Shown: in pieces, positions 35,480 to 52,948 of the stretch | Layout of the letters: each line of letters begins with the position of its first letter | Position numbering within the stretch: position 1 is the stretch's first letter | Source of the DNA: Gemmatimonadota bacterium | GTDB taxonomy: Bacteria > JBHIER01 > G020348925 | Assembly (NCBI GenBank): GCA_020348925.1 | Contig: CP070758.1 | Span: 186,001-250,000, forward strand | Direction: 5' to 3' | Length of the DNA: 64,000 nucleotides | Notes under the pieces: model-generated | Databases searched by the model: none | Seen by the model: only the letters and a program-made list of their open reading frames with translations | What the model was told of the DNA's origin: nothing | Made by a program: the position numbers and the translations under genes

Positions 35480-35502
35480 TCATCATTATCATGGAGGATC
35501 AC

Positions 35503-38490: not shown

Positions 38491-38653
38491 AGATCATTGA
38501 TCACTCCTGAAGTGATTCGATTCCTGCAATCCCTTCGAGCCTTCCTGACGGATGAGGATTTTGCTCAATGTTTGATACTTCATATAAAACCATGTTCGAG
38601 AAGAGTATTCTCTTTTTGAAATTATCCCAATCCATATAATCGTGGAGGATTAC

Positions 38654-41600
38654 ATGAAAATAACGTCACTCGTTTTGATAATCGCTGTCGGAATCATGAT
38701 CTCTGCAAATGCTCAGATCTTTGAAAATCAAGTGAGCACGTCAGGCAAAGATAACACTGCTCTAACCACAGAAACCCGCCTCTCATCGCAAATGGCAAGT
38801 CTGCACATTCCTTTCATTGCCAATGACGGACAATACGACGAACAGGTGGCGTATTCCGCCCGGACATTCGGGGGGACTGTATTCATTACGCATGATGGTG
38901 ACATCGTCTATGCCCTGCAGCACGTTCAGCGGGACAACACACTCTCTGGTGTAGCTCTCAGAGAACAATTCGTCAGATTTTCACGCTTCCGGATAACTGG
39001 AGAGAACCTGTCCAATGCCACCATAAACAGTTTTACAGGAAACGACCGATCGATGCGGACACGGAACATTCCCGCCTACGACCTCGTGAATCTCGGTGAG
39101 GTATACGAAGGTATTATCGTAAAGCTCAAGGCCCACGGTAACAATGTTGAGAAGCTCTTCTGTGTGCAGCCCTGGGCCGATCCTGGGGACATCAGGGTAG
39201 AACTCTCCGGTGGGGACGGTTTACGGGTCAATCCTGCCGGTGAACTGGAGGCAATGACACCTCATGGGACGGTTTCCTTTACCAAACCAATTGCATATCA
39301 GGAAGCTTTCGGTCAGCGTTTTTTTGTCGAGGTCGCTTATCGAGTTCATGGAAATGAATATGGTTTCAGTGTCGGGAATTATAATCCTGAACTTCCTCTC
39401 ATTATTGATCCATTACTGGCTTCGACATTCCTTGGGGGAAGCGGTGACGAGGTAGCCTGGCCATCCGCCGGACTGGCCGTTGATGGTGAAGGCAACATAT
39501 ATGTTGCGGCGACCACATATTCAGCCGACTTCCCCGCAACCACCGGGACATACATGATCGACCACCAGGGCGGAAACACCGATGTGGTTCTATGCAAGTT
39601 CGACGGGGATCTCTCGACGCTGCTCGCAGCCACCTATCTCGGCGGAAATTCAGACGACGGGACGCCGTTCATCGCCATCGATGGAGATGGCAACATCTTC
39701 GTTACGGGTGAGACATCCTCATCGGACTTCCCCACCACGCCCGGTGCCTTCAGGGAGACCCGCCCCGGGCTCGTTGACGTTTTTGTCGCCAAGTTCAGCA
39801 ATGACCTCACGACGCTTCTGGCCAGCACCTATCTCGGCGGTTCGGTCCGCGACGATCACGCCAAAATCGCCGCGGACGACCTCGGCCACGTCTTTGTCAC
39901 CGGCCGAACCCAGTCATCCAACTTTCCCGTCACGGAGGGCGCTTTCGACGAGAGTCACAATCCGGGTTACGATGTTTTTCTGTCCAAGCTCAGCAATGAC
40001 CTGACGACCCTTCACGCTTCCACCTTCCTGGGACCCGGCTGCGCGGATGACCGTCCGGCCATCGATCTGGACCACGACGGCAATCCCGTCGTGACAGGGA
40101 CCACAGAATCGTTCTCCTTTCCGACCACTCCGGGAGCCTACCAGGAGTCCTTCGGGGGTCAACTCGATATCTACGTGGCGAAACTGAACGACGATCTCAG
40201 CGCCCTGGTCGCCTCGACCTTCATTGGATCGGCCAGCTTTGAAATGGGCTACGGCGTGGCCGTCAGCAGCGACAACTCCGTCTTTGTGACATCGCACCCC
40301 ACCGCCAGCTATCCCACCACCCCGGGTGCGTACCAGACGACCTTCGGCGGCGGCGTGGCGGACGCCGGCGTCGCCAAGCTGGACGCCGATCTGACCACAT
40401 TGGTCGCTTCAACGTATATCGGTGGCAACGCCAACGATGCCGCCATATCCGTTGCCCTTGATAACGACGGCAACGTCCTCGTGTCCGGCTACACCGACTC
40501 CCCGGATTTTCCCGTCACACCCTCAGCCATCGATCCTGACTACAACGGCTCAGACGACGGCTTTGTGGCCAAACTGTCACCGGATCTATCCACCCTTTTA
40601 ACGTCGACCTTTCTCGGCGGCTCTGCATCCGACGACGCAAATGCCGTTACCATCAATGACGAAGGTACAATCATCATCAGTGGCTCTACCGCTTCCACCA
40701 ATTTCCCCACTACAAGCGGTGCCTACGATGAAAGCCAAAACGGCGGCAGAGACGTTTTCGTTGCGCTGCTTGATTTCTCCCCCTTCACCCGCGTGACCGA
40801 CGGCGTCGTCGTCACTGATGGCGGACTGTCCGTGGGTGCCTGCTGGGTCGATTACGACGGGGACGATCTCCCCGACCTCTACGTGGTGAACGATGGAAAC
40901 GACGAGATATCCAGGAATAATTTTCTCTATCACAACGAGGGAGACGGGACATTCACCAGGGTTCACGATCAGCCCATGGCAAATGACGGCGCCAGCAGCT
41001 ACGGCGCCAGCTGGGCCGATTATGACAACGACGGAGATATCGACGTCGTTCTGGCCAACTTCAAGGGCTATGCCAATGTCCTCTATGTGAACGACGGGTT
41101 CGGCCATTTCACCGCGGACGTTGCCAATCCAATCAGCCAGGATGCGGCCGGCTCCACATCCCCCAGCTGGATCGACTACGACCTGGATGGCGACCTGGAC
41201 CTGTTCATCGCCAATTCATCCAACGACCTGGATGAATATCCGCCCTTCGAGAATTTTCTCTATCGCAATGATGAAGGGACATTCACCCGGATCACCACCG
41301 GTGACTTGGTCACCCTCGCCCGGCACACCTACGGAAACTGCTGGGGCGACTACGACAGTGACGGCGATCCCGATCTTGTCAATTCGAACAACATGCCGGA
41401 GCCTCTCGATCTGTTTCGCAACGACGGCTCGGGTACGTTCACGCGACTTCCCACCGATGTGTTCGGCTCTGTCAGTGCAAACGGAGGCGGCGCCGCCTGG
41501 GCCGACTACGATAACGACGGCGACCTGGATCTGTTTGTCGCCAACTTCTGGCCGGGACCGAGCTTCCTGTATCGGAACGACGGCGATGGTTCCCTCACCA

Positions 41601-43102
41601 ACCTCATCGGTCACGGCCTGGGCCTGGTTTCCGGCCGGGCCAACGGCGGCGCCTGGGCCGACTATGATAACGACGGTGACCAGGATATCTTTGTCTGGCT
41701 GAATGATTACGAGGTCCCTGCCAATGCCCTGGGGTATCTCTTTGTCAATAATGGAGACGGCTCTTTCACCAGGCTCTCCCCCGCTTCTTTCGAGTGCGAC
41801 GCCTGCAGAGGGAACACCGCCGTCTGGGGCGATTACGACCGGGACGGGGATCAGGACCTGTTCGTCGCCCGGGCCATGTGGGAGCTGGGGCACACCGACA
41901 ATTTGCTCTTTCGAAATAACACCTCCGGAAACCACTGGCTGGTCGTGAAGCCCACCGGTGTTTTATCGAACCGATCGGCCATCGGCGCCAAGGTCAGGGT
42001 AAAGGCGACCCTTGGCGGGAGCCCTGTCTGGCAGATGCGCGAATTGAGAAGTCAGACAGGCGCCCATGCCCAGAGTCCCCTGGAGACACACTTCGGCCTG
42101 GGGGATGCCACCATCATTGACTCGATAAGAATAGAATGGCCCAGCGGCATGGTCGACATTCTGACCGACGTGAATGTCGATCAATTCCTCGTCGTTACCG
42201 AAGGAGAATTCGGCGACCTGGACGGTGATGGCATTGCCGACATCATCGACAACTGTCCCAATAATCCCAATCCTGATCAAGAGGATAACGATGCCGATGG
42301 TGCAGGCGATATCTGCGACAACTGTCCGGACGACGCCAATCCGGATCAAGCGGATGCCGACAGCGACAACACCGGTGACGCCTGTGACCTTTGCACCGAC
42401 ACTGACGGCGACGAATACGGCGATCCTGGCTATCCGGCCAACACGTGCCAGGAGGACAACTGTCCGACCGTCCATAACCCGGATCAGGCTCAAGCCGAAC
42501 AGGGCAACATCAACTGCGACGGCGGAATCAACGTGCTGGATGTGCTGGCAACCATCAACCACATCTTGGGCATAACGCCCCTGGTCGGTGCCCCCCTCGA
42601 CCGAGCCGACTGCAACGGCGACGGCGGCGTCAATATTTTGGACGCTCTGGGTATCATTAACGTTATCCTCGGTACAGGCGAATGCGAACCAACAACCGCA
42701 AAACCCGTTCTCACTTCCAAAGTCATCCAGTTCTGCGAGTCGTTGGAGTCCTCTCTCACTCCTGAGCAATTTTCTCGGTTCATGGCGCTTGTGAGGGGAG
42801 AATCCCAAACTCCTGCGGAGTATGCTCTCTCCCAGAACTATCCCAATCCTTTCAACCCCTATACAGAAATCAGGTATCAGATCCCAGATGTGAGATTGCC
42901 CGCCCACACCACCCTGAAGATTTTCAACACTCTCGGACAGGAGATCCGGAGGTTAGTGGATGAACCTCAGGAGACCGGGTATTACACTGTTACATGGGAT
43001 GGCAGGGATGAACACGGTCATCCCGTGAGTTCAGGCGTGTACTTCTACCAAATAGTTGCGGAGGATTTTTACAAGACGAGGAAAATGTTGCTCTTGAAAT
43101 AA
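38654..43102 (+). CDS. Secreted SBBP + FG-GAP/VCBS + ASPIC/UnbV (CRTAC1-like) + TSP3 + dockerin + C-terminal sorting domain
   Basis: SBBP repeats; [13 protein letters not shown] repeats; N.SAIGAKV...HFGLG...[14 protein letters not shown]. Confidence 0.9.
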   Translation: MKITSLVLIIAVGIMISANAQIFENQVSTSGKDNTALTTETRLSSQMASLHIPFIANDGQYDEQVAYSARTFGGTVFITHDGDIVYALQHVQRDNTLSGVALREQFVRFSRFRITGENLSNATINSFTGNDRSMRTRNIPAYDLVNLGEVYEGIIVKLKAHGNNVEKLFCVQPWADPGDIRVELSGGDGLRVNPAGELEAMTPHGTVSFTKPIAYQEAFGQRFFVEVAYRVHGNEYGFSVGNYNPELPLIIDPLLASTFLGGSGDEVAWPSAGLAVDGEGNIYVAATTYSADFPATTGTYMIDHQGGNTDVVLCKFDGDLSTLLAATYLGGNSDDGTPFIAIDGDGNIFVTGETSSSDFPTTPGAFRETRPGLVDVFVAKFSNDLTTLLASTYLGGSVRDDHAKIAADDLGHVFVTGRTQSSNFPVTEGAFDESHNPGYDVFLSKLSNDLTTLHASTFLGPGCADDRPAIDLDHDGNPVVTGTTESFSFPTTPGAYQESFGGQLDIYVAKLNDDLSALVASTFIGSASFEMGYGVAVSSDNSVFVTSHPTASYPTTPGAYQTTFGGGVADAGVAKLDADLTTLVASTYIGGNANDAAISVALDNDGNVLVSGYTDSPDFPVTPSAIDPDYNGSDDGFVAKLSPDLSTLLTSTFLGGSASDDANAVTINDEGTIIISGSTASTNFPTTSGAYDESQNGGRDVFVALLDFSPFTRVTDGVVVTDGGLSVGACWVDYDGDDLPDLYVVNDGNDEISRNNFLYHNEGDGTFTRVHDQPMANDGASSYGASWADYDNDGDIDVVLANFKGYANVLYVNDGFGHFTADVANPISQDAAGSTSPSWIDYDLDGDLDLFIANSSNDLDEYPPFENFLYRNDEGTFTRITTGDLVTLARHTYGNCWGDYDSDGDPDLVNSNNMPEPLDLFRNDGSGTFTRLPTDVFGSVSANGGGAAWADYDNDGDLDLFVANFWPGPSFLYRNDGDGSLTNLIGHGLGLVSGRANGGAWADYDNDGDQDIFVWLNDYEVPANALGYLFVNNGDGSFTRLSPASFECDACRGNTAVWGDYDRDGDQDLFVARAMWELGHTDNLLFRNNTSGNHWLVVKPTGVLSNRSAIGAKVRVKATLGGSPVWQMRELRSQTGAHAQSPLETHFGLGDATIIDSIRIEWPSGMVDILTDVNVDQFLVVTEGEFGDLDGDGIADIIDNCPNNPNPDQEDNDADGAGDICDNCPDDANPDQADADSDNTGDACDLCTDTDGDEYGDPGYPANTCQEDNCPTVHNPDQAQAEQGNINCDGGINVLDVLATINHILGITPLVGAPLDRADCNGDGGVNILDALGIINVILGTGECEPTTAKPVLTSKVIQFCESLESSLTPEQFSRFMALVRGESQTPAEYALSQNYPNPFNPYTEIRYQIPDVRLPAHTTLKIFNTLGQEIRRLVDEPQETGYYTVTWDGRDEHGHPVSSGVYFYQIVAEDFYKTRKMLLLK

Positions 43103-43161
43103 GCCTCGGCGGATTTCGAAAAACTCTTTTCCCAAATCCTGGAGATCAAGGGGAGGATTGA

Positions 43162-45663
43162 ATGAAGCATATATTTCCAAGAATATCGGGTACACTTTTA
43201 TTATGGGCAGGAGGAATGGTTTCGATTTTCATGCTGGCTCCCGTTTTCTCCACATCCCAGGTTACCCAACTCACACATGATCCGGAATGGGCGAAACATC
43301 CTGTTCGGTCACCGGACGGCTCGGCAATAGCCCTTGCGTCAGACGAAGTGATACATCTTGAGCACGATGATCAATTCACCCGAATCTATGAGGGTGATCT
43401 CGTCACCGACGGCGGCAGCTCACAAGGCGTGAGCTGGATCGATTACGACAACGACGGCTATCTGGATCTGTTCGTCAGTAATCTGATCTGGCCCACCGGT
43501 CAGGACAACTGGTTATATCATAATAACGGCGACGAAACTTTCAGTAAAATCACTGAGGGAGATATCACCCATGACGGTGGTCTATCGCGGACCAGCACCT
43601 GGGGCGATTGCGACAACGACGGCGATCCGGACTGCTTCGTATCGAACTGGCCGGATGAACGCAACTTTCTCTATCTCAACGACGGCCATGGCACCTTCAC
43701 AAAGGTCACTACGGGGGAAATAGTCAATGAAAACAGGGGTTCCCCGGCCGCCGCTTGGGCCGATTACGACAACGACGGCGACCTGGACCTCTTTGTGGCC
43801 AATTACGGTCCAAATTCCCTGTTTCGAAATGACGGTGAAGGATTTACCAAAATCACGAGTGGGGATATCGCGACCGATGTCAGTGATTCGTACAGCGCAG
43901 CCTGGGGTGATTACGACAACGACGGCGACCTCGATCTCTTTGTGACCTCCAACTACGGAAACCTGAATAACTATTTCTATAAAAATAACGGGGACGGGAC
44001 CTTCGAAAAAGTCACCGGTCAGAATATTGTCAGCGACGGCGGAGAATCCTTTGGTGGCAGCTGGGGTGATTACGACAACGACGGTGATCTGGATCTCTTT
44101 GTGCCGAACATCTCGTACTCGACCGACGGCAACAATTTCCTGTACAACAATAATAGTGACGGAACTTTCACCAGAATCACGCAGGGCGACATCGTCAATG
44201 ACGGCGGATACTCCTTCGGCAGTGCCTGGGGCGATTACGATAATGACGGCGACCTGGATCTGTTCGTGTCGAACTATCCCGATGGGGGACAAAGCCGAGA
44301 CTTCCTTTACGAAAACAATGGGGGTGGGACCTTCTCAGGCGTAACGGGTGAAGGAGTCGTTACCGATGAAGGAGCCTCATACGGGGCCGCCTGGGGTGAT
44401 TACGATCGGGACGGCGATCTGGATCTGTTCGTCGCCAAATTCGCGGATCAAAACGAGAACAATACCCTCTACCAGAACAATGGGAGTAATAATAACTGGA
44501 TCAATATAAAATGTGTGGGAACGATTTCAAACACTTCGGCCATCGGGGCAAAGGTTCGCATCAAAGCGTTCATTTACGGCACTCCTACTTGGCAGCTCCG
44601 TGAGATCTCAGCACAAACAGGATACTGCAGCCAAAACAGCCTCAATGCTCATTTTGGTTTGGCTGACGCGACATTAATCGACTCAATCAAGATCGAATGG
44701 CCCAGCGGTACGGTTGATATCCTGACCGATATCGATGTCAACCAATTTGTAATCATAACAGAAGGTGAGTGCGGTGATTTGGATGGAGATGGCATTGCCG
44801 ATGGAAACGACAACTGTCCCAATAATCCCAATCCTGATCAAGAAGATAACGATGCCGATGGTGCAGGCGATATCTGCGACAACTGTCCGGACGACGCCAA
44901 TCCGGATCAAGCCGATGCTGACAGCGACGACACCGGTGACGCCTGTGACCTTTGCACCGACACTGACGGTGACGGTTACGGCGATCCCGGCTATCCGGCC
45001 AACACGTGCCAGGAGGACAACTGTCCGACCGTCCATAACCCGGATCAGGCTCAGGCCGAACAGGGCAACATCAACTGCGATTCCGGTATCAACGTCCTGG
45101 ATGTACTGGCCGCCATCAACCACATCTTGGGTATAACGCCCCTGATCGGTGCTCCTCTCGACAGAGCCGACTGCAACGGTGATGGAGGCGTCGATATTTT
45201 GGATGCCTTGGGTATTATCAATGTCATCCTGGGTACAGGTGAGTGTGCCCCAAATTCTCTGAAACCGCTCGTCACTCCTGAAGTCATTCGGTTCTGCGAG
45301 TCCCTTGAGCCCTATCTCCTTTCTGAAGAGTTCGCCCTGTTCATGTCTCTGGTGAAAGCTGAGTACCAGACTCCTGACGGGTACTATCTCTCCCAGAACT
45401 ATCCCAATCCCTTCAATCCGCATACAGAAATGAGATATCAGATCCCAGATGTGAGATTGCCCGACCACACCACCCTGAAGATTTACAACATTCTTGGACA
45501 GGAGGTGCAGACGTTGATCGATGAGGTCCAGGAACCGGGTTATTACACTGTCATATGGGATGGTACGGATGAGAGAGGTCAAAAGGTGAATTCAGGTGTG
45601 TACTTCTATCGGTTAACAGCGAAGAACTATTGTCAGACAAGAAAAATGTTGCTCGTAAAATAA
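43162..45663 (+). CDS. Secreted FG-GAP + ASPIC/UnbV + TSP3 + dockerin + C-terminal sorting domain
   Basis: Seven [14 protein letters not shown]-type repeats, HFGL..IEWPSG, dockerin, NYPNPFNP. Confidence 0.9.
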
Positions 45664-45714
45664 TTCAGGGAGGATGGGCGCACTTAAAACCTTTGCACCC
45701 GAAAGGAGGAGACC

Positions 45715-48072
45715 ATGAGAAAGGCATTCATTTTTATGCTGTTCTCAGTTGCTTTGACCTCAGCTATCCTGGGCGAAGCGCAAGCCGCCCAGCGAATGGT
45801 TCTGGCCGAGCTCTTCGCCAACAACTCTTGAGTACCTTGTGGCGTAGCGGCCCCCCGTGTGAGGGTCCTTGAAGAAAATTATCCCGAAATCCTGACTATG
45901 ATTCAGTATCACCCTTGGTGGCCAGATTCCTCCGAAGTTTTCTACGTGGCCAATAGGCATGAAAATCGCGCCCGAAATATGTATTACGACAACGAATTTT
46001 TACCCCACCTTTTTCTTGACGGATTCATTGACGCCAGTAATGACCCGGGGGACGACACCTGGTTCAACATGGTCACCGACAGGGCTCAGGTGGAGAGTCC
46101 CCTTGAGATGAACCTTGAAATCGATTTTGACGGATCGGGCGGCACCGTGTACGCTCACATCACCGCCGAGGAGGCCATTACTCAATCCGATCCGGTGATC
46201 CACTTTGTTCTCACCGAATCGGAAATCGAACATGAGGCGCCCAACGGTATCTCTCTCCATCACAACATCATGCGCAAAATGCTCCCGGACGAGAAGGGTG
46301 AATCTTTCACGATCCAGGCGGGCCAGTCACTCAATCTCTCACGAGAATTCATTCTCCAGCCCGAATGGGTGCCTGAGAGCTGCGCTTTTGTTGTTTTCAT
46401 TCAGGATAATGTGACCGGCGAAGTGCTCCAGGCAGCGAGGTCGAGGATTTTCACTTCGATCTCGATGATGACTTACAGTCTCACCGAGCCGGATGGAGAT
46501 GGTGATGGAAATTTCGAGCCCGGGGAAACCGTACATCTATTCCTCTCCCTGATGAACTTCGGCCCTCTCGCTACGGATGTTTCGGTTCTCTTGACTTGTG
46601 ATGATCCGGATATCTCACTTCTGACGAGTGGAATTCAGTTTGAAGATATCCCCCTCAACACCACAATGGACAACTCTGCTTTCCCCCTCATTTTCCAGAT
46701 CGACCAGTCCGTCGGGGCCCACTATACGACTCTGACTGCTGAAGTGACGGCCAATGGTGGGCAGGTTTCATTTCAGGAGAGCATCGAAATTCTTGTGGGA
46801 AAACCCGAAATCCTCATCGTGAACGACGATCACCTTCCTCCTCCCTACTCCTGGGACTATGATGCCGAGGGCTTGTACCGAAGGGCCCTTGACGACAGAG
46901 GCGAAACCTATCACGTCTGGAATACGCAGGTATCCGGTACGCCGGAGGGATACCTGCTGCAGGAGTATGAGATCGTAATCTGGTTCACGAGTGTGTCTGA
47001 CTTCACTCTGAATACGGAGGATGAAGCTGCTCTGACATCATTCCTGGACTCAGGCGGTCGTCTCATCATCAGCGGCGAGGACATTGGCGCTGATCTGGCA
47101 TCCTCAGACTTTCTGAGCGAACACCTTCATGCCCAGCTCATGAGCGACAACAGCAGCAATCCCATTCTCTCCGGAGTACAGGGAGACGTCATCAGCGGGA
47201 ACGTATCCTTCATGTCCATCAACGGCATCGAGGGGGTGAATAATCGCCCTGACGTGATTGGGCCGCTCTCAGGGGCCACGCCGTTTTTCACCTACGGTGT
47301 CTCAGGTGAGCCGGCCGCCATTCGGTACGGAGGTGACTACAAAGTTGTCTATTTTGCCTTCGGTTTCGAGGGCATTTTGGACTTCTATAACGCGGAGAAC
47401 AGTTCTACCCTGAGAGCCGATCTCATGCAAAACACACTGAACTGGCTGAGACAGGAGTTTACACCCCAGGTCGGTGATGTGAACGAGGACAGTGCAGTCG
47501 ACATACTCGACGTGTTGTGGGTGGTGAACATCGTCCTTGGGATAGACGTACCAACATCCGGACAGGAGTGGGCAGCCGACTGCAACGGCGACGGGGGAAT
47601 CGACATCTTAGACGCATTGGGCATTATTAACGTGATTCTCGGGACGGGCGCATGCTCCTCGACAACTGTGAAACCAACACTCACATTTGAAGTTATGCAG
47701 TTTTGTCAATCGTTGAAATCGTACCTCTCCCATGAGGAATTTGATCGGTTCATGACTTTGATCAAGGGAAATGCGCAGGTTCCAGTTGAGTTCCACCTTG
47801 CTCAGAACTATCCCAATCCCTTCAACACCAACACAGAGATCAAATTTCAGATACCGGTTGAAACATCCATGCCGCACGTTACACTAATTGTCTATAACCT
47901 TCTCGGTCAGGAGATAAAAACCTTGGTGAACGGGTTGAAGGAACCGGGTGTTCACACTGTGACCTGGGATGGGAAGGATAACTTTGGAAGCGGTGTTTCC
48001 AGCGGTATGTATTTCTATCGCTTCAAAGTGGGCAAATTCATGGCCATGAGGCGCATGATACTGTTGAAGTAA
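45715..48072 (+). CDS. Omp28-like thioredoxin-fold secreted protein with in-frame TGA (probable selenocysteine, UxxC) + dockerin + C-terminal sorting domain
   Basis: AAAGGAGG RBS, ATG 45715, signal peptide MRKAFIFMLFSVALTSAILGEAQA, then QRMVLAELFANNS-TGA-VPC, in frame with ORF 45859-48072 (IQYH, R..YY....P....DG, VLTES, HHNIMRKML, VVFIQD...EVLQA). Confidence 0.82.
45832..45868 (+). promoter_or_regulatory. Candidate bacterial SECIS element
   Basis: Stem GGCCC (45849-53) / GGGTC (45863-67) with apical CGTGT loop about 25 nt after the TGA. Confidence 0.5.
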
Positions 48073-48133: not shown

Positions 48134-49201
48134 ATGAACAACAGATCCAACACAAAATTAGTCCACGCATTGGATCCAGGGGTAATAACCACACTCCCGG
48201 GGCGGAGACCTTTCGTGAGGAGGGAATTCTTAATAAAGCTCTTCATTTTCTCCTCCATATTCGTACTGAGTGTGGACACGCTTTATAAATATTACCACGG
48301 TATAACCTATTTGAAGAGAGAAGATTGCATCCTCTATGCGATACTTCCGAAGTGGGCTTTCATTCTCTTCGAACACTTCATCGAACTCATCCTTATCGTG
48401 GTCGTCGCCATTTTCGCGGCGGCCATCATCGAAAAATACTTCATCAGATTGAAGAAATTCATCCCAAAAAACACGCTCTCAGCCTTTATCTATGCCTCGG
48501 TCATACCGGTCTGTTCCTGCAGCGCCATTCCTCTCGTGCCGGCCATGAAAGACAAGCTCCCTTTTCGGGCCATCATCACCTTTGTCGTTGCAGCACCTCT
48601 TTTGAATCCGTACATCATTATGCTTTCAGTGACTGTTTTGGGATTACGATACGCCCTGGTGAGGATTTTTTGCTCGTTCATTCTTGCAGTGGCCTCCGGA
48701 TATATAGCAGAGATGCTGTACAGGCGAATGAAACATCAGGAGCTTGGTGTCTGGAACGGCTGTCATACCAGAGAAAACTGCATGGCGGAAGGGAAAAGTG
48801 TTTATGAAGATACGTTCATGATCTTCAAAAAAATCTTTCCCTTCCTGATCGTTGCCGGCGTTCTGAGTGCTGTTTTCGACCAGTTTGTTCCAAGGCATCT
48901 CTTTGACAATTACGATCTGAGTAATCATTTCCTCGGAACCGGTCTCGTCATCCTCATTGGAGTACCCGTCTATTTCTGCAACGGCGCAGATGTTCTGTTC
49001 TTGCAGCCACTATTGCAATACAGCCACTTGCCTCTCGGAACAGCTATGGCCTTCTCTCTCACCTCGACCTCTGTCTGCATCTCATCACTGATCCTGCTGA
49101 TTAAATTTATCGGGAAAAAACTCACCTTAACCATTTTAGCCAGTGTTGTCATCATAACCTTCTTGTTGAGCCTCGGAATCCAACTCATCTCAATGGTATA
49201 A
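48134..49201 (+). CDS. DUF318 family permease
   Basis: PVCSCSAIP, AAPLLNP, PVYFCNGAD; multiple TM segments; start uncertain. Confidence 0.8.
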   Translation: MNNRSNTKLVHALDPGVITTLPGRRPFVRREFLIKLFIFSSIFVLSVDTLYKYYHGITYLKREDCILYAILPKWAFILFEHFIELILIVVVAIFAAAIIEKYFIRLKKFIPKNTLSAFIYASVIPVCSCSAIPLVPAMKDKLPFRAIITFVVAAPLLNPYIIMLSVTVLGLRYALVRIFCSFILAVASGYIAEMLYRRMKHQELGVWNGCHTRENCMAEGKSVYEDTFMIFKKIFPFLIVAGVLSAVFDQFVPRHLFDNYDLSNHFLGTGLVILIGVPVYFCNGADVLFLQPLLQYSHLPLGTAMAFSLTSTSVCISSLILLIKFIGKKLTLTILASVVIITFLLSLGIQLISMV

Positions 49202-49571
49202 TCGACGGACGTTTTGATCGCCCGGTTTACGTATGCCGGGCAAATATAGTTACACGTATATATATCCCTACTCTGTTCTGTCCTAATACCTCCCAAAGGA
49301 AATCCCTATACGATCAAGATTAAGATACCAGTTTCGTCCTTCGGCGACGCTCTTTATCTTTTATAACGTAACCGTTTGACGTAACCGAAACGGGCCACGT
49401 TGAATGATCTGTCTGGTTAATATCATCTTAAAGAAGGCATCCCATGGTTCATCACATTCGCACCTATTGCATGGTCATTCCTTATTCTACGGGGCAGGCA
49501 TCGTAACCGTAACCTTAACCCTATCCCTAAATGTGCATCCGTGGCAAAGAATACGGATAAAAAGAAACTCC

Positions 49572-49600
49572 TTGACTTTACATCCAAAAAAGGATATTTT
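49572..49600 (+). promoter_or_regulatory. Putative sigma70 promoter of the tup/moe operon
   Basis: TTGACT-17bp-TATTTT just upstream of the riboswitch. Confidence 0.6.
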
Positions 49601-49614
49601 AAGGTTTCGAAAAT

Positions 49615-49710
49615 ATCTCAGAGCCATTGTGTCTAAAGGACTTCCATGATACGATGGCCGACAGGGCAGATGGGGGAAACTCCGCTGCCTCCCGTGTTTG
49701 GAAAGGAGAT
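49615..49710 (+). ncRNA. Moco/Tuco riboswitch (Moco RNA motif)
   Basis: ATCTC/GAGAT P1; GCCATTGTGTC-TAAAGG..-GATACGATGGC P2; GGCAG..GGAAAC..CTGCC P4; conserved GCCTCCCGT..TTTGGAAAGGAG; upstream of tup/moe/moa genes. Confidence 0.88.
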
Positions 49711-49726
49711 GCGAAGGGATAAAGTC

Positions 49727-49756
49727 AGCGCCTGTAGAACACGGGCGCTTTTTTTG
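49727..49756 (+). terminator. Riboswitch expression-platform terminator
   Basis: AGCGCCTGT-AGAAC-ACGGGCGCT followed by a T tract. Confidence 0.8.
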
Positions 49757-49778
49757 TTACCCAATATTATCAGGTTCT

Positions 49779-50471
49779 ATGCAGTATCTATTTGAGGGCA
49801 TTGCCAAAGCACTAAGTTTGATCTCATCTCTGGACCCGGAAGTCCTCTCAGCTGTCTGGGTTTCGCTCCGGACCTCTGTCACTGCTATTGCTTTCGCTTC
49901 CCTGATCGGAGTTCCTATCGGATTCTTAGTGGCGACACACAATTTTCGGGGTAAGCGACCGGTTGTCTTACTACTGAACACGCTCATGGCACTCCCGACT
50001 GTTGTCGTCGGCCTGATCGTGTACTCTTTCCTGTCACGTCAAGGTCCTCTGGGACCACTCGGATTGCTCTATACACCCTCAGCCATGGTCGTGGGGCAGT
50101 TCATTCTGGCCACTCCCATTGTGGCAGCCCTCACACTCACGGCGGTTCAGGGCATAGACCCAAGGGTTCGCCAAACAGCAGTCACTTTGGGAGCAAATCG
50201 ACTCCAACTGGCAATGACGATGACTTCCGAGGCTCGATTTGCGATTACGGCGGCTATTATTGCCGGCTTTGGACGCATCATCGCTGAAGTCGGCTCAGCC
50301 ATGATGCTCGGCGGAAATATTAGGGGCTACACCAGAACCATGACCACAACTATAGCCCTCGAGACGAGCAAGGGCGAATTCGCTCTCGGAATTGCCCTCG
50401 GAGTTATTCTATTGATCGTTGCCTTCACTGTAAACATCCTTTTTCAAGCGTTGCAGAGGCGAGGGATATGA
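49779..50471 (+). CDS. tupB: Tungstate ABC transporter permease
   Basis: NTLMALPTVVVGL..Y..LSR.GPLG, EVGSAMMLGGNIRGYTRTMTT.IALETSKG. Confidence 0.88.
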   Translation: MQYLFEGIAKALSLISSLDPEVLSAVWVSLRTSVTAIAFASLIGVPIGFLVATHNFRGKRPVVLLLNTLMALPTVVVGLIVYSFLSRQGPLGPLGLLYTPSAMVVGQFILATPIVAALTLTAVQGIDPRVRQTAVTLGANRLQLAMTMTSEARFAITAAIIAGFGRIIAEVGSAMMLGGNIRGYTRTMTTTIALETSKGEFALGIALGVILLIVAFTVNILFQALQRRGI

Positions 50472-51484
50472 ATCAAGGACCAATACTTGAACTTCTCAAC
50501 GTCAAGCACAGCTATAACCGACGCATCGTTCTCGACATACCCGACATGTCCTTTCAGTCAGGTGGGCTCTATGGAGTCGTCGGTCCCAATGGTGCAGGAA
50601 AGACGACCCTGCTGAAAATATTGAGTTTCCTCGAGGAACCGAGAGAGGGCAGCATCCGATTCGAGGGACAGTTCGTGAATTTCTCGGAGAACGGACTCAA
50701 TTCTTTACGGCGGCAGACGACGCTCGTTATGCAGGACCCGCTCCTCTTTCACAATACGGTCCTGAAGAACGTAGCCTACGGATTATGGGTGAGAGGTGTT
50801 GAGAAATCCGAGAGGATGAGACGGGCCCTGAAAGTTCTGGACACCGTCGGCTTGACTCGATACGCCGACCAGAAAGCACAGAACCTTTCCGGTGGCGAGA
50901 TCCAGCGCGTCGCCATCGCCCGTGCCCTGGCCACCAATCCTAAAGTACTTCTTCTGGACGAACCCACGGCCAATCTCGATCGACCCCACACCTCCTCCAT
51001 CATAGATACGCTTCGGGATATTAATACACAGTTCGGAACAACCATTATCCTGGCCACCCACAATTTGAGACAGGCGTACGGCTTTTCCAATGACGTCATA
51101 TCCCTGTTGGACGGGCGTTCCGTCGGAAGTCATCCGGATAATCTCTTCCAAGGTAAAATTGTCGAACAAAACGGCCGAACCTGGTTATCGATCGACGATA
51201 GTTACGGCTTTTATATTGTCTCCGATCGACGCGGCCCGGCGTACGCCTCGGTAGATCCGAAGGAGATCATAGTTTCACGGGAACCTTTTGATTCCAGTGC
51301 CCTCAATTGCCTGCACGGGAAAATCGTCGGCCTTCATCAGGAGGGGTCCCTGATCCGACTCACAGTTGATACCGGAGTGCCCTTCGTCTCGTTGATCACG
51401 ATGACGTCTTTTGAAGAAATGCAACTGAATATCAACACGACTGTCTATCTCACGTTCAAGGCAGCCTCCGTCGAGGTCTATTAA
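50468..51484 (+). CDS. tupC: Tungstate/molybdate ABC ATP-binding protein with C-terminal TOBE domain
   Basis: GPNGAGKT, LSGGE, LLLDEPT; TOBE motif SALN..G.I...FKA. Confidence 0.82.
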   Translation: MNQGPILELLNVKHSYNRRIVLDIPDMSFQSGGLYGVVGPNGAGKTTLLKILSFLEEPREGSIRFEGQFVNFSENGLNSLRRQTTLVMQDPLLFHNTVLKNVAYGLWVRGVEKSERMRRALKVLDTVGLTRYADQKAQNLSGGEIQRVAIARALATNPKVLLLDEPTANLDRPHTSSIIDTLRDINTQFGTTIILATHNLRQAYGFSNDVISLLDGRSVGSHPDNLFQGKIVEQNGRTWLSIDDSYGFYIVSDRRGPAYASVDPKEIIVSREPFDSSALNCLHGKIVGLHQEGSLIRLTVDTGVPFVSLITMTSFEEMQLNINTTVYLTFKAASVEVY

Positions 51485-51522
51485 TATGACATCTCGGAAA
51501 TTCTACGATTTACGAGATGTAT

Positions 51523-51657
51523 CAGGGGGTTTGGGGGAAAGGATGCGCTTTCCCCCAAGGGGCAACAGGATTTCGATGTGAGCTGGTGGAGCATCGAAAT
51601 CCGCCATAGGGGCGAAAGCCCCTTGGGAACGTTGCGAGCAAAGCGAGCTCAGTTCGA
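51523..51657. repeat. Multi-hairpin intergenic element
   Basis: TTGGGGGAAAG/CTTTCCCCCAA, GGATTTCGATG/CATCGAAATCC and AGGGGC-GAAA-GCCCCT hairpins. Confidence 0.55.
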
Positions 51658-51718
51658 TTATGAGCCACAGAGACGCGGAGACACGGATATAAACAAGAAA
51701 CAATTTTGAGGAAAATCC

Positions 51719-52948
51719 ATGGCACCCTTTTGGAAGGTTATTACGAGGGAAGAAGCGGAGCAACTATACGCAGACATTAAACCGCTGGAGTCGGAGCGGG
51801 TACACATTCAGTATTGTTTGGACCGAGTCTTGGGAGAGGACATCATTTCAGAGGTTGACGTCCCACATTTCCCCCGATCAAACATGGACGGCTACGCCGT
51901 TCGAGCGGAGGACACGTACGGAGCCTCGGAAAGCTCACCCATAACTTTGAAGATCGTAGGTAAGGTGGACATGGGAAAGGTAGCAGACCTTTCCATCTCG
52001 CCTGGAGAAGTGGCTCACATCGCCACAGGCGGAATGCTTCCTGAGGGAGCGGATGCCATGGTCATGGTGGAATATACGGAGGCTCCTGAGAATGATAGGG
52101 TAGCCATCAAGAGGGCCGTAGCACCTGGAGAGCATATCGTCTCAATCGGAGAGGATATAAAGCGTGGTCAACTCCTGTTGAAAAAAGGCAACCGGCTGAG
52201 GGCCCAGGATATTGGGGTTTTAGCCGCTGTTGGTGTAACGGAGGTGGCAGTACATCGCCGGCCCCGCGTTGGTATTCTTTCCACCGGGGATGAGATTGTG
52301 CCTCCTGAGGTGGAACCGAAACCCGGACAAGTGAGGGGCACGAATATCTATACATTATCGGCTTTGACAGTGAAGTTCGGTGGTGAGCCCATCGACTTCG
52401 GGATCGTTCGTGATGAATTCGAGACGTTGAAGGAAAAAATAGCCGCGGCAATCCAGTCGTGCGACATCGTCGCCATTTCGGGTGGCAGCTCCGTGGGGAC
52501 CCAGGATATTACATTATGCGTCATCAAATCCTTTGAGGCAAAAGGAATTCTGGCTCACGGCGTCGCCATCCGGCCGGGAAAACCGACGATTCAGGCTCTG
52601 GTCAGTGGGAAACCTGTGATCGGACTGCCAGGCCATCCGGTCTCGGCAGCCGTCGTTTACGGGCTCTTGGTGAAGCCCATCATTTACCGACTGACAGGCG
52701 CGTCGGAGAACCTTTCCGAGCAAGCCGCGATTCGGGCCAGGCTGTCCCAAAACGTCCCCTCCCCCTCGGGCCGGGAGGATTACGTGAGAGTAACTTTGAG
52801 GCGTGAGGGAGACCTGTGGTGGGCGGACCCGATTTTCGGGAAATCGGGCGCCATAACGACCCTCACGAAAGCGGATGGACTCGTGAAAATCGACCTCGAA
52901 CTCGAGGGACTGGAGGAGGGCCAATGGGTCGAGGTGAAACCCTTTTAG
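51719..52948 (+). CDS. moeA: Molybdopterin molybdenum/tungsten transferase, paralogue 1
   Basis: SNMDGYAV, IATGG.LP.GADA, STGDE, SGGSSVG, RPGKP, GLPGHPVS. Confidence 0.95.
   Translation: MAPFWKVITREEAEQLYADIKPLESERVHIQYCLDRVLGEDIISEVDVPHFPRSNMDGYAVRAEDTYGASESSPITLKIVGKVDMGKVADLSISPGEVAHIATGGMLPEGADAMVMVEYTEAPENDRVAIKRAVAPGEHIVSIGEDIKRGQLLLKKGNRLRAQDIGVLAAVGVTEVAVHRRPRVGILSTGDEIVPPEVEPKPGQVRGTNIYTLSALTVKFGGEPIDFGIVRDEFETLKEKIAAAIQSCDIVAISGGSSVGTQDITLCVIKSFEAKGILAHGVAIRPGKPTIQALVSGKPVIGLPGHPVSAAVVYGLLVKPIIYRLTGASENLSEQAAIRARLSQNVPSPSGREDYVRVTLRREGDLWWADPIFGKSGAITTLTKADGLVKIDLELEGLEEGQWVEVKPF

What the first reader, a model, noticed from the sequence alone, without database searches (positions are those of the whole stretch)
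45715..48072. Probable secreted selenoprotein: Omp28-like UxxC domain fused to a dockerin and an export tail
Seen: strong RBS (AAAGGAGG) and ATG at 45715, a clean signal peptide, then QRMVLAELFANNS, TGA (45829-31), VPC, continuing in frame into the listed ORF at 45859. A GC stem-loop with G in its apical loop lies about 25 nt downstream. Established: Omp28-like domains start with V..E.FT..WCxxC; Sec typically replaces the first Cys of CxxC; bacterial SECIS elements sit just 3' of the UGA. Inference: this is a Sec-containing extracellular thiol-disulfide oxidoreductase that docks via a dockerin. Without read-through the protein would lack both signal peptide and active site, yet the remaining ~740 codons are intact.
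Basis: partly seen in the sequence, partly recalled or inferred. Interest (0 to 1): 0.9.

Follow-up and report, generated by a model that had tools for sequence, protein, structure and literature searches.

The report
Secreted Omp28-like selenoprotein with dockerin
The "stop" codon inside this gene very probably encodes selenocysteine in the active site of a secreted thioredoxin-like surface protein, a correct catch that belongs to a selenoprotein family already curated in public databases.

Summary
An RBS and ATG (45715) open a 785-codon frame with one in-frame TGA (45829-31, codon 39) that ends at TAA 48070-72.

The TGA sits at the first Cys of a CxxC motif: 113 of the 150 best database relatives have C-x-x-C there. 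Two paralogues in this genome and eight further relatives with DNA carry TGA at the same column. The genome has selA, selB, selD and tRNA-Sec, and uses TGA as its commonest stop. An independent contig from a second sample also keeps the TGA.

The hairpin 3' of the TGA is weak on its own (-5.5 kcal/mol, matched by 35.5% of random coding sites). It is homologous to a stronger hairpin in the paralogues, where seven consecutive codons are identical down to their synonymous sites.

An AlphaFold model (pLDDT 94) places U39 at the start of helix 1 of a thioredoxin fold. Its best structural match is P. gingivalis HBP35, a T9SS-secreted protein with measured thioredoxin activity.

A dockerin and a T9SS tail follow. 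The genome holds 73 cohesin matches over cut-off and a SprA translocon.

NCBIfam already curates an "Omp28-related selenoprotein" family (NF045500). This scan has noted such genes before on other DNA, including a dockerin-fused one. Verdict: new member of a known kind.

The parts
45702..45709 (+). Ribosome-binding site AAAGGAGG, 5 nt before the ATG
   Evidence: Read directly
45715..48072 (+). Full coding sequence: 785 codons with one in-frame TGA, stop TAA 48070-48072
   Evidence: Translation with TGA=U is open throughout. Stop read. Gene callers start it at GTG 45859 or at Met89 (P0002)
45715..45786 (+). Signal peptide, residues 1-24 (MRK, hydrophobic core, AQA|A)
   Evidence: By inspection. 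Equivalent N-termini precede the TGA in both paralogues and in L051. No predictor was run
45829..45840 (+). U-V-P-C redox motif; TGA 45829-45831 is the predicted Sec39
   Evidence: Aligns with C-x-x-C in 113 of 150 best relatives. TGA sits at the same column in 10 further sequences with DNA. In the model U39 lies between strand 29-34 and helix 40-55
45849..45868 (+). SECIS-like hairpin with GUGU apical loop, stem starting 20 nt after UGA
   Evidence: -5.0 to -6.7 kcal/mol, unremarkable alone. It is homologous to the -9.9 kcal/mol hairpin of paralogues and L051. Codons P-R-V and V-L are identical in all four genes
45790..46089 (+). Thioredoxin-like subdomain, residues ~26-125
   Evidence: AF2 model pLDDT 94.4. 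Profile hits to thioredoxin 1fo5 (E 1.1e-4) and DUF1223 2axo. Foldseek hits to HBP35 5y1a and 2axo
46096..46449 (+). Omp28-type beta-sandwich, residues ~128-245
   Evidence: Pfam Omp28 40.2 bits, cut-off 34.9. PDB 2r2c matched by sequence and by fold
46462..46824 (+). Second all-beta (Ig-like) module, residues ~250-370
   Evidence: AF2 model of residues 250-590: strands only up to model residue 121, block pLDDT about 77-96. No Pfam hit
46825..47454 (+). Alpha/beta module, residues ~371-580, function unknown
   Evidence: AF2 model, mean pLDDT 80.8. Foldseek matches a domain of GH42 beta-galactosidases, STM3548 (2gk3) and the IFT52 N-terminal domain, E ~1e-8, TMq 0.37-0.45
47473..47640 (+). Type I dockerin, residues 587-642, two Ca-loop repeats (DVNEDSAVDILD, DCNGDGGIDILD)
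   Evidence: Pfam Dockerin_1 42.7 bits, cut-off 22.9. Repeats read
47809..48060 (+). T9SS C-terminal sorting domain, residues 699-782
   Evidence: TIGR04183 31.7 bits, cut-off 23. FlgD_ig 40.6 bits, cut-off 27; Pfam Por_Secre_tail 18.9, below its cut-off of 27

Best explanation
This is one gene (45715-48072) for a 785-residue secreted selenoprotein. UGA at codon 39 is decoded as selenocysteine by SelB and tRNA-Sec, helped by a small hairpin about 20 nt downstream. That gives a U-V-P-C redox motif at the start of helix 1 of a thioredoxin-like fold in an Omp28/HBP35-type domain. The signal peptide takes the protein across the inner membrane, and the C-terminal domain then takes it through the type IX secretion system. 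The dockerin can attach it to one of the many cohesin-bearing proteins of this bacterium. At the cell surface it most likely acts as a thiol/selenol-disulfide oxidoreductase. Shown here: the Sec/Cys column, the Sec machinery, the fold and the domains. Inferred: actual Sec insertion, the redox activity, the substrate and the docking.
For: - **Sec/Cys column.** Among the 150 best representative relatives, 113 have C-x-x-C at the U-x-x-C columns. Another 27 start just after them, at reference positions 45-78, as expected for gene calls cut at a TGA. One of those 27 (P0022) was checked on its DNA (L051) and is preceded by an in-frame TGA and a signal peptide.
- **Recurrence.** Two paralogues in this genome (52-56% identical) carry TGA at the same column behind their own signal peptides, and a fourth paralogue has Cys. 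In total 11 distinct TGA-bearing and 11 Cys-bearing sequences were seen with DNA.
- **Sec machinery.** selA 520.8 bits, selB 396.5 bits, selD 372 bits (itself with one TGA) and tRNA-Sec with anticodon tca are all present.
- **TGA is a normal stop.** 634 of 1540 long ORFs end in TGA. Frames close after a median of 15 codons past TGA, as they do past TAG.
- **Not an assembly error.** A 5465-nt contig from another sample covers 45468-46700 with one difference, at 45924 (third position of a Pro codon, CCA to CCG), and none at the TGA.
- **SECIS as a group.** The 11 Sec-type sequences have more stable hairpins at +8..+50 than 400 random coding sites (Mann-Whitney p = 2e-5) and than the 11 Cys-type sequences (p = 0.007). 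Cys-type does not differ from random (p = 0.20). The sequences are related, so these p values overstate.
- **Synonymous-site conservation.** In paralogues 2 and 3 and L051, the seven codons that form the hairpin are identical, the longest such run. The background is 94 of 255 conserved-residue codons, so p^7 is about 9e-4. With this gene added, 5 of 5 are identical against a background of 44 of 191.
- **Same hairpin style in other genes.** selD and four other candidate selenoprotein genes of this genome carry 5-9 bp hairpins with G-containing loops (GUU, GGUC, AGUU, UGGAU, GGC); the hairpin segments start at +13 to +27.
- **Fold.** AF2 pLDDT 94.4. Best match is HBP35 5y1a, TMq 0.76, E 6.5e-14. 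HBP35 reduced insulin faster than E. coli thioredoxin, the C48S/C51S mutant was inactive, and hbp35 complemented an E. coli dsbA mutant (passages of PMC2907840).
- **Export and docking context.** SprA scores 708 bits in all, there are 11 peptidase C25 matches, and 73 cohesin matches exceed the cut-off.
Against: - This gene's own hairpin is weak (-5.5 kcal/mol) and is matched by 35.5% of random coding sites. Relative to the paralogues it has lost an A-U pair and shifted an internal mismatch. The region's fold has z = +0.87, and no Rfam family matched.
- The score against the curated selenoprotein model NF045500 is 52.7 bits, against a cut-off of 200.
- There is no direct evidence of selenium incorporation or of expression.
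- The conserved motif reads F-A-N here, where relatives have F-T-N.
- The hairpin statistics use related sequences, and I set the scoring rule myself.
Confidence: 0.88

Rival explanations
1. The TGA is a real stop. Either the gene is a pseudogene, or the functional product starts downstream (GTG 45859 or Met89, as gene callers annotate it).
For: Gene callers do start downstream (ORF list; 697-aa P0002). This gene's hairpin is weak.
Against: A product that starts downstream has no signal peptide, yet it carries a T9SS tail and a dockerin that only make sense outside the cell. It would also lack strand 1 and the active site of the thioredoxin fold. The 38 codons before the TGA encode a signal peptide and the family's conserved RMVL-E-F motif. 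The same TGA column recurs in two paralogues and eight other sequences. 746 codons after the TGA are intact.
Confidence: 0.05
2. UGA is read through, but not as Sec. It could be near-cognate Trp or Cys insertion, or a genome-wide reassignment of TGA.
For: The weak SECIS in this copy. Cys is the residue used by most relatives.
Against: TGA is the commonest stop of long ORFs (634 of 1540), and frames close as quickly after it as after TAG, so there is no reassignment. The complete Sec machinery is present. Hairpin codons are conserved at synonymous sites. No homologue has Trp at this column.
Confidence: 0.05
3. Sequencing or assembly error turned TGC/TGT/TGG into TGA.
For: None found.
Against: A Logan contig from another sample (X2, depth 12.3) has no difference at 45829-31. 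Paralogues and relatives in other genomes have TGA at the same column.
Confidence: 0.01

Closest known systems
NCBIfam NF045500 'Omp28-related selenoprotein' (Omp28_seleno). Earlier notes of this scan equate it with 'hypothetical protein GOS_C' of Zhang & Gladyshev 2008 (PMC2398784)
   Same: Omp28-like domain with a Sec-containing active site. Our residues 18-245 align to model positions 30-268. The paper's passages describe GOS_C as having a Trx-like fold, a conserved UxxC motif, 74 Sec and 312 Cys sequences, and SECIS-like hairpins.
   Different: It scores 52.7 bits against a cut-off of 200, so it is not an equivalog. No over-cut-off member was found in G000, G036 or G017. This protein is twice as long, with two extra modules, a dockerin and a T9SS tail. 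The GOS_C = NF045500 equation could not be checked here: the paper never uses the word Omp28 (0 occurrences), its Figure 6G is not held, and Dataset S2 is a supplement that was closed.
HBP35 of Porphyromonas gingivalis (PDB 5y1a)
   Same: Best structural match over the whole N-terminal 256 residues (TMq 0.76, E 6.5e-14). Both have a thioredoxin-like domain with a two-residue-spaced redox pair followed by a beta-sandwich, and both have a T9SS C-terminal domain. HBP35 has measured thioredoxin activity that depends on C48/C51 (passages).
   Different: 14% sequence identity. HBP35 has Cys, not Sec, has no dockerin or alpha/beta module, and binds hemin. Hemin binding was not examined here.
Omp28 (Pfam PF11551, PDB 2r2c) and DUF1223 (PF06764, PDB 2axo)
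   Same: Pfam Omp28 hit above cut-off on residues 89-245. 2r2c and 2axo are found by both sequence profile and fold.
   Different: The solved Omp28 piece covers only the beta-sandwich. The DUF1223 Pfam score (15.9) is below its cut-off of 30.7. Neither entry is described as a selenoprotein.
Dockerin-bearing subunits of cohesin-dockerin assemblies (clostridial cellulosomes; recalled)
   Same: Type I dockerin with two Ca-binding repeats. The genome has 73 cohesin matches over cut-off.
   Different: The cargo is a redox selenoprotein, not a glycoside hydrolase. The host is an uncultured T9SS-bearing bacterium. In this genome a T9SS tail often follows the dockerin. No binding was tested.

Membership tests
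Bacterial selenoprotein gene | In-frame UGA aligned to Cys in homologues | tested here: met
   113 of 150 best relatives have C-x-x-C at these columns, none has Trp. See also the alignment.
Bacterial selenoprotein gene | selA, selB, selD and tRNA-Sec in the genome | tested here: met
   All are above their curated cut-offs. ARAGORN finds tRNA-SeC with anticodon tca.
Bacterial selenoprotein gene | SECIS hairpin just 3' of the UGA with G in the apical loop | tested here: inconclusive
   A hairpin is present at +20..+39 with a GUGU loop. It scores only -5.5 kcal/mol, which 35.5% of random sites match. Support comes from the paralogue hairpin (-9.9) and from synonymous-site conservation. bSECISearch was not available.
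Bacterial selenoprotein gene | Selenium in the protein | not testable with these tools
   Needs 75Se labelling or mass spectrometry.
NCBIfam NF045500 Omp28-related selenoprotein (equivalog_domain) | HMM score at or above the curated 200 bits | tested here: not met
   52.7 bits; 41 bits in the six-frame search.
Pfam Omp28 (PF11551) | Score at or above the gathering threshold of 34.9 bits | tested here: met
   40.2 bits, residues 89-245.
Thioredoxin-fold oxidoreductase | Redox pair at the N-terminus of helix 1 after strand 1 of a Trx fold | tested here: met
   In the AF2 model the strand is 29-34, U39/C42 follow, and the helix is 40-55. Profile hit to thioredoxin 1fo5 at E 1.1e-4. Foldseek hits to HBP35 and 2axo.
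Thioredoxin-fold oxidoreductase | Disulfide reductase or oxidase activity | not testable with these tools
   Inferred from the HBP35 assay only.
Type I dockerin | Pfam score over cut-off and two Ca-binding repeats | tested here: met
   42.7 bits against 22.9. Both repeats are read.
Type I dockerin | Binds a cohesin | not tested
   Cohesins are abundant in the genome, but no partner was chosen or modelled.
T9SS cargo | Signal peptide, C-terminal sorting domain, and T9SS in the genome | tested here: met
   TIGR04183 31.7 against 23. SprA over cut-off. Peptidase C25 / PorU-like, 11 matches. The signal peptide is judged by inspection only. Pfam Por_Secre_tail is below its cut-off.

The most novel reading that the evidence does not exclude
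The protein is a selenocysteine-based redox module that is physically docked, through its dockerin, onto cohesin scaffolds of a large extracellular assembly in an almost unsampled T9SS-bearing lineage. Its two dockerin-only paralogues would dock in the same way. That would be an extracellular, scaffold-mounted selenoenzyme. It would show that cohesin-dockerin systems outside the clostridia organise redox chemistry as well as polysaccharide breakdown.
Probability: 0.3. Interest if true: 0.55.

Novelty: new member of a known kind. Interest (0 to 1): 0.3.

Why it matters
It corrects an annotation. Public gene calls for this protein and for at least 27 of the 150 best related clusters start after the TGA, so they lose the signal peptide and the active site. 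It adds a long, multi-domain, dockerin- and T9SS-tagged branch to the Omp28-related selenoproteins. It also shows three such genes in one genome from a lineage with almost no sequenced relatives. If the docking is real, selenium-based redox chemistry would sit on the cell surface of sediment bacteria. The principle itself, a UxxC Omp28-like selenoprotein, is already known.

Tried and rejected
- **Whole-region RNA fold** of 45829-45900: z = +0.87, not informative.
- **Rfam** at permissive E-value over 45600-46100: only chance-level hits (SNORD50, RsmY), no SECIS family.
- **MFE z-scores** of the +6..+56 segment did not separate Sec from Cys forms (mean z 0.04 vs 0.11, p = 0.45). Raw MFE did so weakly (p = 0.015).
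- **A stricter hairpin rule** (G in the first two loop positions) missed this gene's hairpin, so I relaxed it to G anywhere in the loop. The rule was therefore tuned after seeing the data.
- **NF045500 search** in G000, G036 and G017: no match over the cut-off. Most of the 163 G000 matches fall on the model's C-terminal part, positions ~245-376, which is not the redox domain.
- **Close relatives with DNA:** Metagenome contigs gave 4 loci and genome contigs 2, too few for a covariation model of this gene's own hairpin.
- **De novo genome scan** for U near C in coding frames gave 165 candidates, mostly noise. Only a handful look real, and none was checked against a family library.
- **RNA evidence:** no RNA holder listed. 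Runs X3, X4 and X8 did not cover the TGA.
- **Literature:** 0 papers hold Omp28 + selenoprotein or selenoprotein + DUF1223. Selenoprotein + dockerin (2 papers) and selenoproteins + type IX secretion (1 paper) gave only irrelevant titles.
- **Promoter/terminator scan:** at chance level.
- **Earlier-findings look-ups** by place and by sequence gave nothing for this stretch.
- **Complex prediction** for dockerin-cohesin was not used: any choice among 73 cohesins would have been arbitrary.
Full report
**Observation.**
AAAGGAGG (45702-45709) precedes ATG 45715 by five bases. The frame opens with a typical signal peptide (MRK, hydrophobic core, AQA|A). It continues with QRMVLAELFANNS, TGA (45829-45831, codon 39) and VPCG. 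It then runs in the same frame into the mechanically listed GTG ORF at 45859 and on to TAA at 48070-48072, 785 codons in all. A GC-rich stem-loop lies at 45849-45868, 20 nt after the U of UGA, with a GUGU-containing loop.

**Is the TGA a selenocysteine codon?**
Five independent lines say yes.
- *Alignment.* Distant full-length relatives place Cys exactly at this column (FTNYACPPC, FTQASCGPC and so on), while the six closest database proteins all begin just after it. An exhaustive search found 3579 related clusters at E <= 0.001. Of the best 150, 113 have C-x-x-C at the two columns, 27 are N-terminally cut and start at reference positions 45-78, and 10 have gaps or other residues; none has Trp. 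One of the 27 (P0022) is encoded on locus L051, where an in-frame TGA and a signal peptide precede the called start.
- *Recurrence.* The genome contains two further paralogues in tandem near 4.78 Mb, 52-56% identical to this one. Each has its own signal peptide and TGA at the same column (FTNTS-TGA-GGC, FTNTS-TGA-RGC). A fourth paralogue has Cys (FTSTTCEPC). Other genomes and contigs add eight more TGA forms (G036, G017, L051, L052, L056) and ten Cys forms.
- *Machinery.* selD (itself with one in-frame TGA), selB and selA lie side by side at 2.5167-2.5213 Mb. A tRNA-Sec with anticodon tca lies at about 405.4 kb. The single-contig genome is 96.3% complete.
- *Genetic code.* TGA is the commonest stop of long ORFs (634 of 1540). 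Frames close after a median of 15 codons beyond it, the same as after TAG, so TGA is not reassigned.
- *Not an error.* A 5465-nt contig assembled from another sample covers 45468-46700 at depth 12.3. It has a single difference at 45924 (CCA to CCG, synonymous by my reading) and none at the TGA.

**The SECIS.**
This is the weakest link for this particular copy. Its hairpin scores -5.0 to -6.7 kcal/mol depending on the pairing. In my scan the best single hairpin with a G-containing loop between +8 and +50 scored -5.5, and 35.5% of 400 random in-frame sites in long ORFs matched that. The MFE of the whole region is unremarkable (z = +0.87) and Rfam has nothing.

Comparison changes the picture.
- Paralogues 2 and 3 and L051 share a better version of the same element at the same offset: GGACC-C-CC-GUGU-GG-C-GGUCC, -9.9 kcal/mol, matched by 8% of random sites.
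- As a group, the 11 Sec-type sequences beat the random sites (p = 2e-5) and the 11 Cys-type sequences (p = 0.007). Cys-type sequences look like random sites (p = 0.20). The sequences are related and I relaxed the loop rule after a first try, so these figures are indicative only.
- Among paralogues 2 and 3 and L051 (56-66% protein identity), only 94 of 255 columns with a conserved residue keep the same codon. Yet all seven codons that form the hairpin (D-P-R-V-A-V-L) are identical, the longest such run in the alignment (0.37^7 is about 9e-4). With this gene included, 5 of 5 are identical against a background of 44 of 191. The P-R-V-x-V-L motif is absent from Cys forms, which fits an RNA constraint rather than a protein constraint.
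- In the G036/L052/L056 subgroup a different hairpin (C[G/A]UCGGC-GGA-G[U/C]CGG[C/U]G) sits at the same place, with a G-C to A-U double change between copies.
- selD and four other likely selenoprotein genes of this genome (an HdrA-like FPTNDCSIU, a TPTUPYC glutaredoxin-like, and two Trx/TlpA-like) carry 5-9 bp hairpins with G-containing loops, in segments that start 13-27 nt after their UGA.

This copy has lost an A-U pair and shifted an internal mismatch relative to its paralogues. Sec insertion may therefore be less efficient here, which remains open.

**What the protein is.**
- *Domain hits.* Pfam finds Omp28 (residues 89-245), Dockerin_1 (587-642) and FlgD_ig with T9SS-tail signals (699-782). 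NCBIfam's best hit is NF045500 'Omp28-related selenoprotein' (52.7 bits, cut-off 200), then the Omp28 lipoprotein family and the TIGR04183 sorting domain.
- *N-terminal domain.* An AlphaFold model of residues 1-256, built on 51 sequences, has pLDDT 94.4. U39 and C42 lie between strand 29-34 and helix 40-55, the canonical thioredoxin active-site position, and a beta-sandwich follows. Foldseek's best match is HBP35 of P. gingivalis (5y1a, TMq 0.76, E 6.5e-14), then the DUF1223 protein 2axo and the Omp28 domain 2r2c. A sequence profile also reaches thioredoxin 1fo5 at E 1.1e-4.
- *HBP35 as anchor for function.* HBP35 is a T9SS cargo with measured activity. The passages I read from PMC2907840 report insulin reduction faster than E. 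coli thioredoxin, loss of activity in the C48S/C51S mutant, and complementation of an E. coli dsbA mutant. The enzymatic reading of the present protein rests on this analogy.
- *Middle region.* Residues 250-590 model as an Ig-like beta module followed by an alpha/beta module (pLDDT 80.8). The alpha/beta module resembles a domain of GH42 beta-galactosidases, STM3548 and the IFT52 N-terminal domain (E ~1e-8, TMq 0.37-0.45). From recall, these are class-I-glutamine-amidotransferase-like or 'GIFT' folds without a defined activity here.

**Surroundings.**
- The three genes upstream (35491-45663, same strand) encode large FG-GAP, beta-propeller and TSP3 proteins. All three carry a dockerin, and two of them also have a FlgD_ig/T9SS tail.
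- Downstream lie an ArsP-type permease, modB- and modC-like genes and moeA.
- The genome has 81 cohesin matches, 73 over the cut-off. It has at least 61 strict dockerin-motif hits, of which about 37 end within 22 residues of a stop and about 13 are followed by roughly 143-152 residues.
- It also has a SprA translocon (708 bits in all) and 11 peptidase C25 matches. Export by T9SS and docking to cohesins are therefore plausible in this organism, but neither was tested.
- Only one of the 40 'relative' genomes shares the family; the rest share only the domain. The lineage is therefore very thinly sampled.

**Rivals.**
- *True stop, with a product starting at 45859 or Met89.* This would make an extracellular-type protein with no signal peptide and half a thioredoxin fold. 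It also cannot explain the conserved upstream frame or the recurrent TGA column.
- *Non-Sec read-through or reassignment.* This conflicts with the stop-codon usage, the complete Sec machinery and the synonymous-site conservation.
- *Sequencing error.* The second contig and the paralogues exclude it.

**Known or new.**
- NCBIfam already carries a curated 'Omp28-related selenoprotein' model.
- Zhang & Gladyshev 2008 (PMC2398784, passages read) describe 'hypothetical protein GOS_C' with a Trx-like fold, a UxxC motif, 74 Sec and 312 Cys sequences and SECIS-like hairpins.
- Earlier notes of this scan equate the two. They list 44 findings in at least 40 genomes of this kind, including one dockerin-fused case. 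I could not verify the equation: the paper never says Omp28, its figure is not held, and its supplement was closed.
- My four searches found no paper on Omp28-type, dockerin-bearing or T9SS-sorted selenoproteins.
- The present protein fails the NF045500 cut-off. It differs by its length, its extra modules, the dockerin and the T9SS tail.

I therefore file it as a new member (a divergent, multi-domain branch) of a known kind.

Noticed in passing
G000:C1 genome-wide; window 35491-45663 for three examples: Very large cohesin-dockerin complement for a T9SS-bearing, non-clostridial bacterium: 81 cohesin matches (73 over cut-off) and at least 61 strict dockerin-motif hits. A recurring C-terminal cassette of TSP3 repeat, dockerin, ~55-residue linker and T9SS tail appears on FG-GAP/beta-propeller proteins.
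   Followed up: partly
G000:C1:4776169-4781964 (loci L022, L023), minus strand: Two tandem paralogues (650 and 654 residues) of the studied gene. Each has a signal peptide and TGA at the same UxxC column, and each ends right after the dockerin with no T9SS tail.
   Followed up: partly
G000:C1:4133710-4133712 (+), 2422273-2422275 (+), 1450315-1450317 (+), 1520967-1520969 (-): Four further likely selenoprotein genes with in-frame TGA and downstream hairpins: HdrA-like (FPTNDCSIU), glutaredoxin-like (TPTUPYC), thioredoxin-like (TSPTUKWC) and TlpA-like (WHSGUPTC). They came from a noisy de novo scan and were not checked against family libraries.
   Followed up: partly
G000:C1:2516704-2521319 (-) and 405376-405470 (+): selD (with its own in-frame TGA), selB and selA are adjacent on one strand. 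tRNA-Sec lies 2.1 Mb away.
   Followed up: yes
window 45385-45426: A ~40-base stretch inside the T9SS tail of the upstream gene attracts very many unrelated metagenome contigs (summed depth up to 1215 in run X2, with loose ends on both sides). It is a highly conserved, multi-copy sorting-domain motif and not a feature of this gene.
   Followed up: no
search of 40 relative genomes: Only one genome shares the family with G000; the other 39 are labelled 'same domain'. This 5.04-Mb closed genome from sediment represents a lineage with almost no sequenced relatives in the collection.
   Followed up: no
G000, 163 matches to NF045500 model positions ~245-376: Most matches fall on the C-terminal part of the NF045500 model and repeat many times within large surface-protein ORFs (up to about 19 times in one 2278-residue frame near 2.705 Mb). 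This is presumably a short repeat shared with the model's tail.
   Followed up: no
window 48134-52948: Directly downstream lie an ArsP-type permease, modB- and modC-like ABC transporter genes and moeA (molybdenum cofactor). No link to the selenoprotein was found.
   Followed up: no
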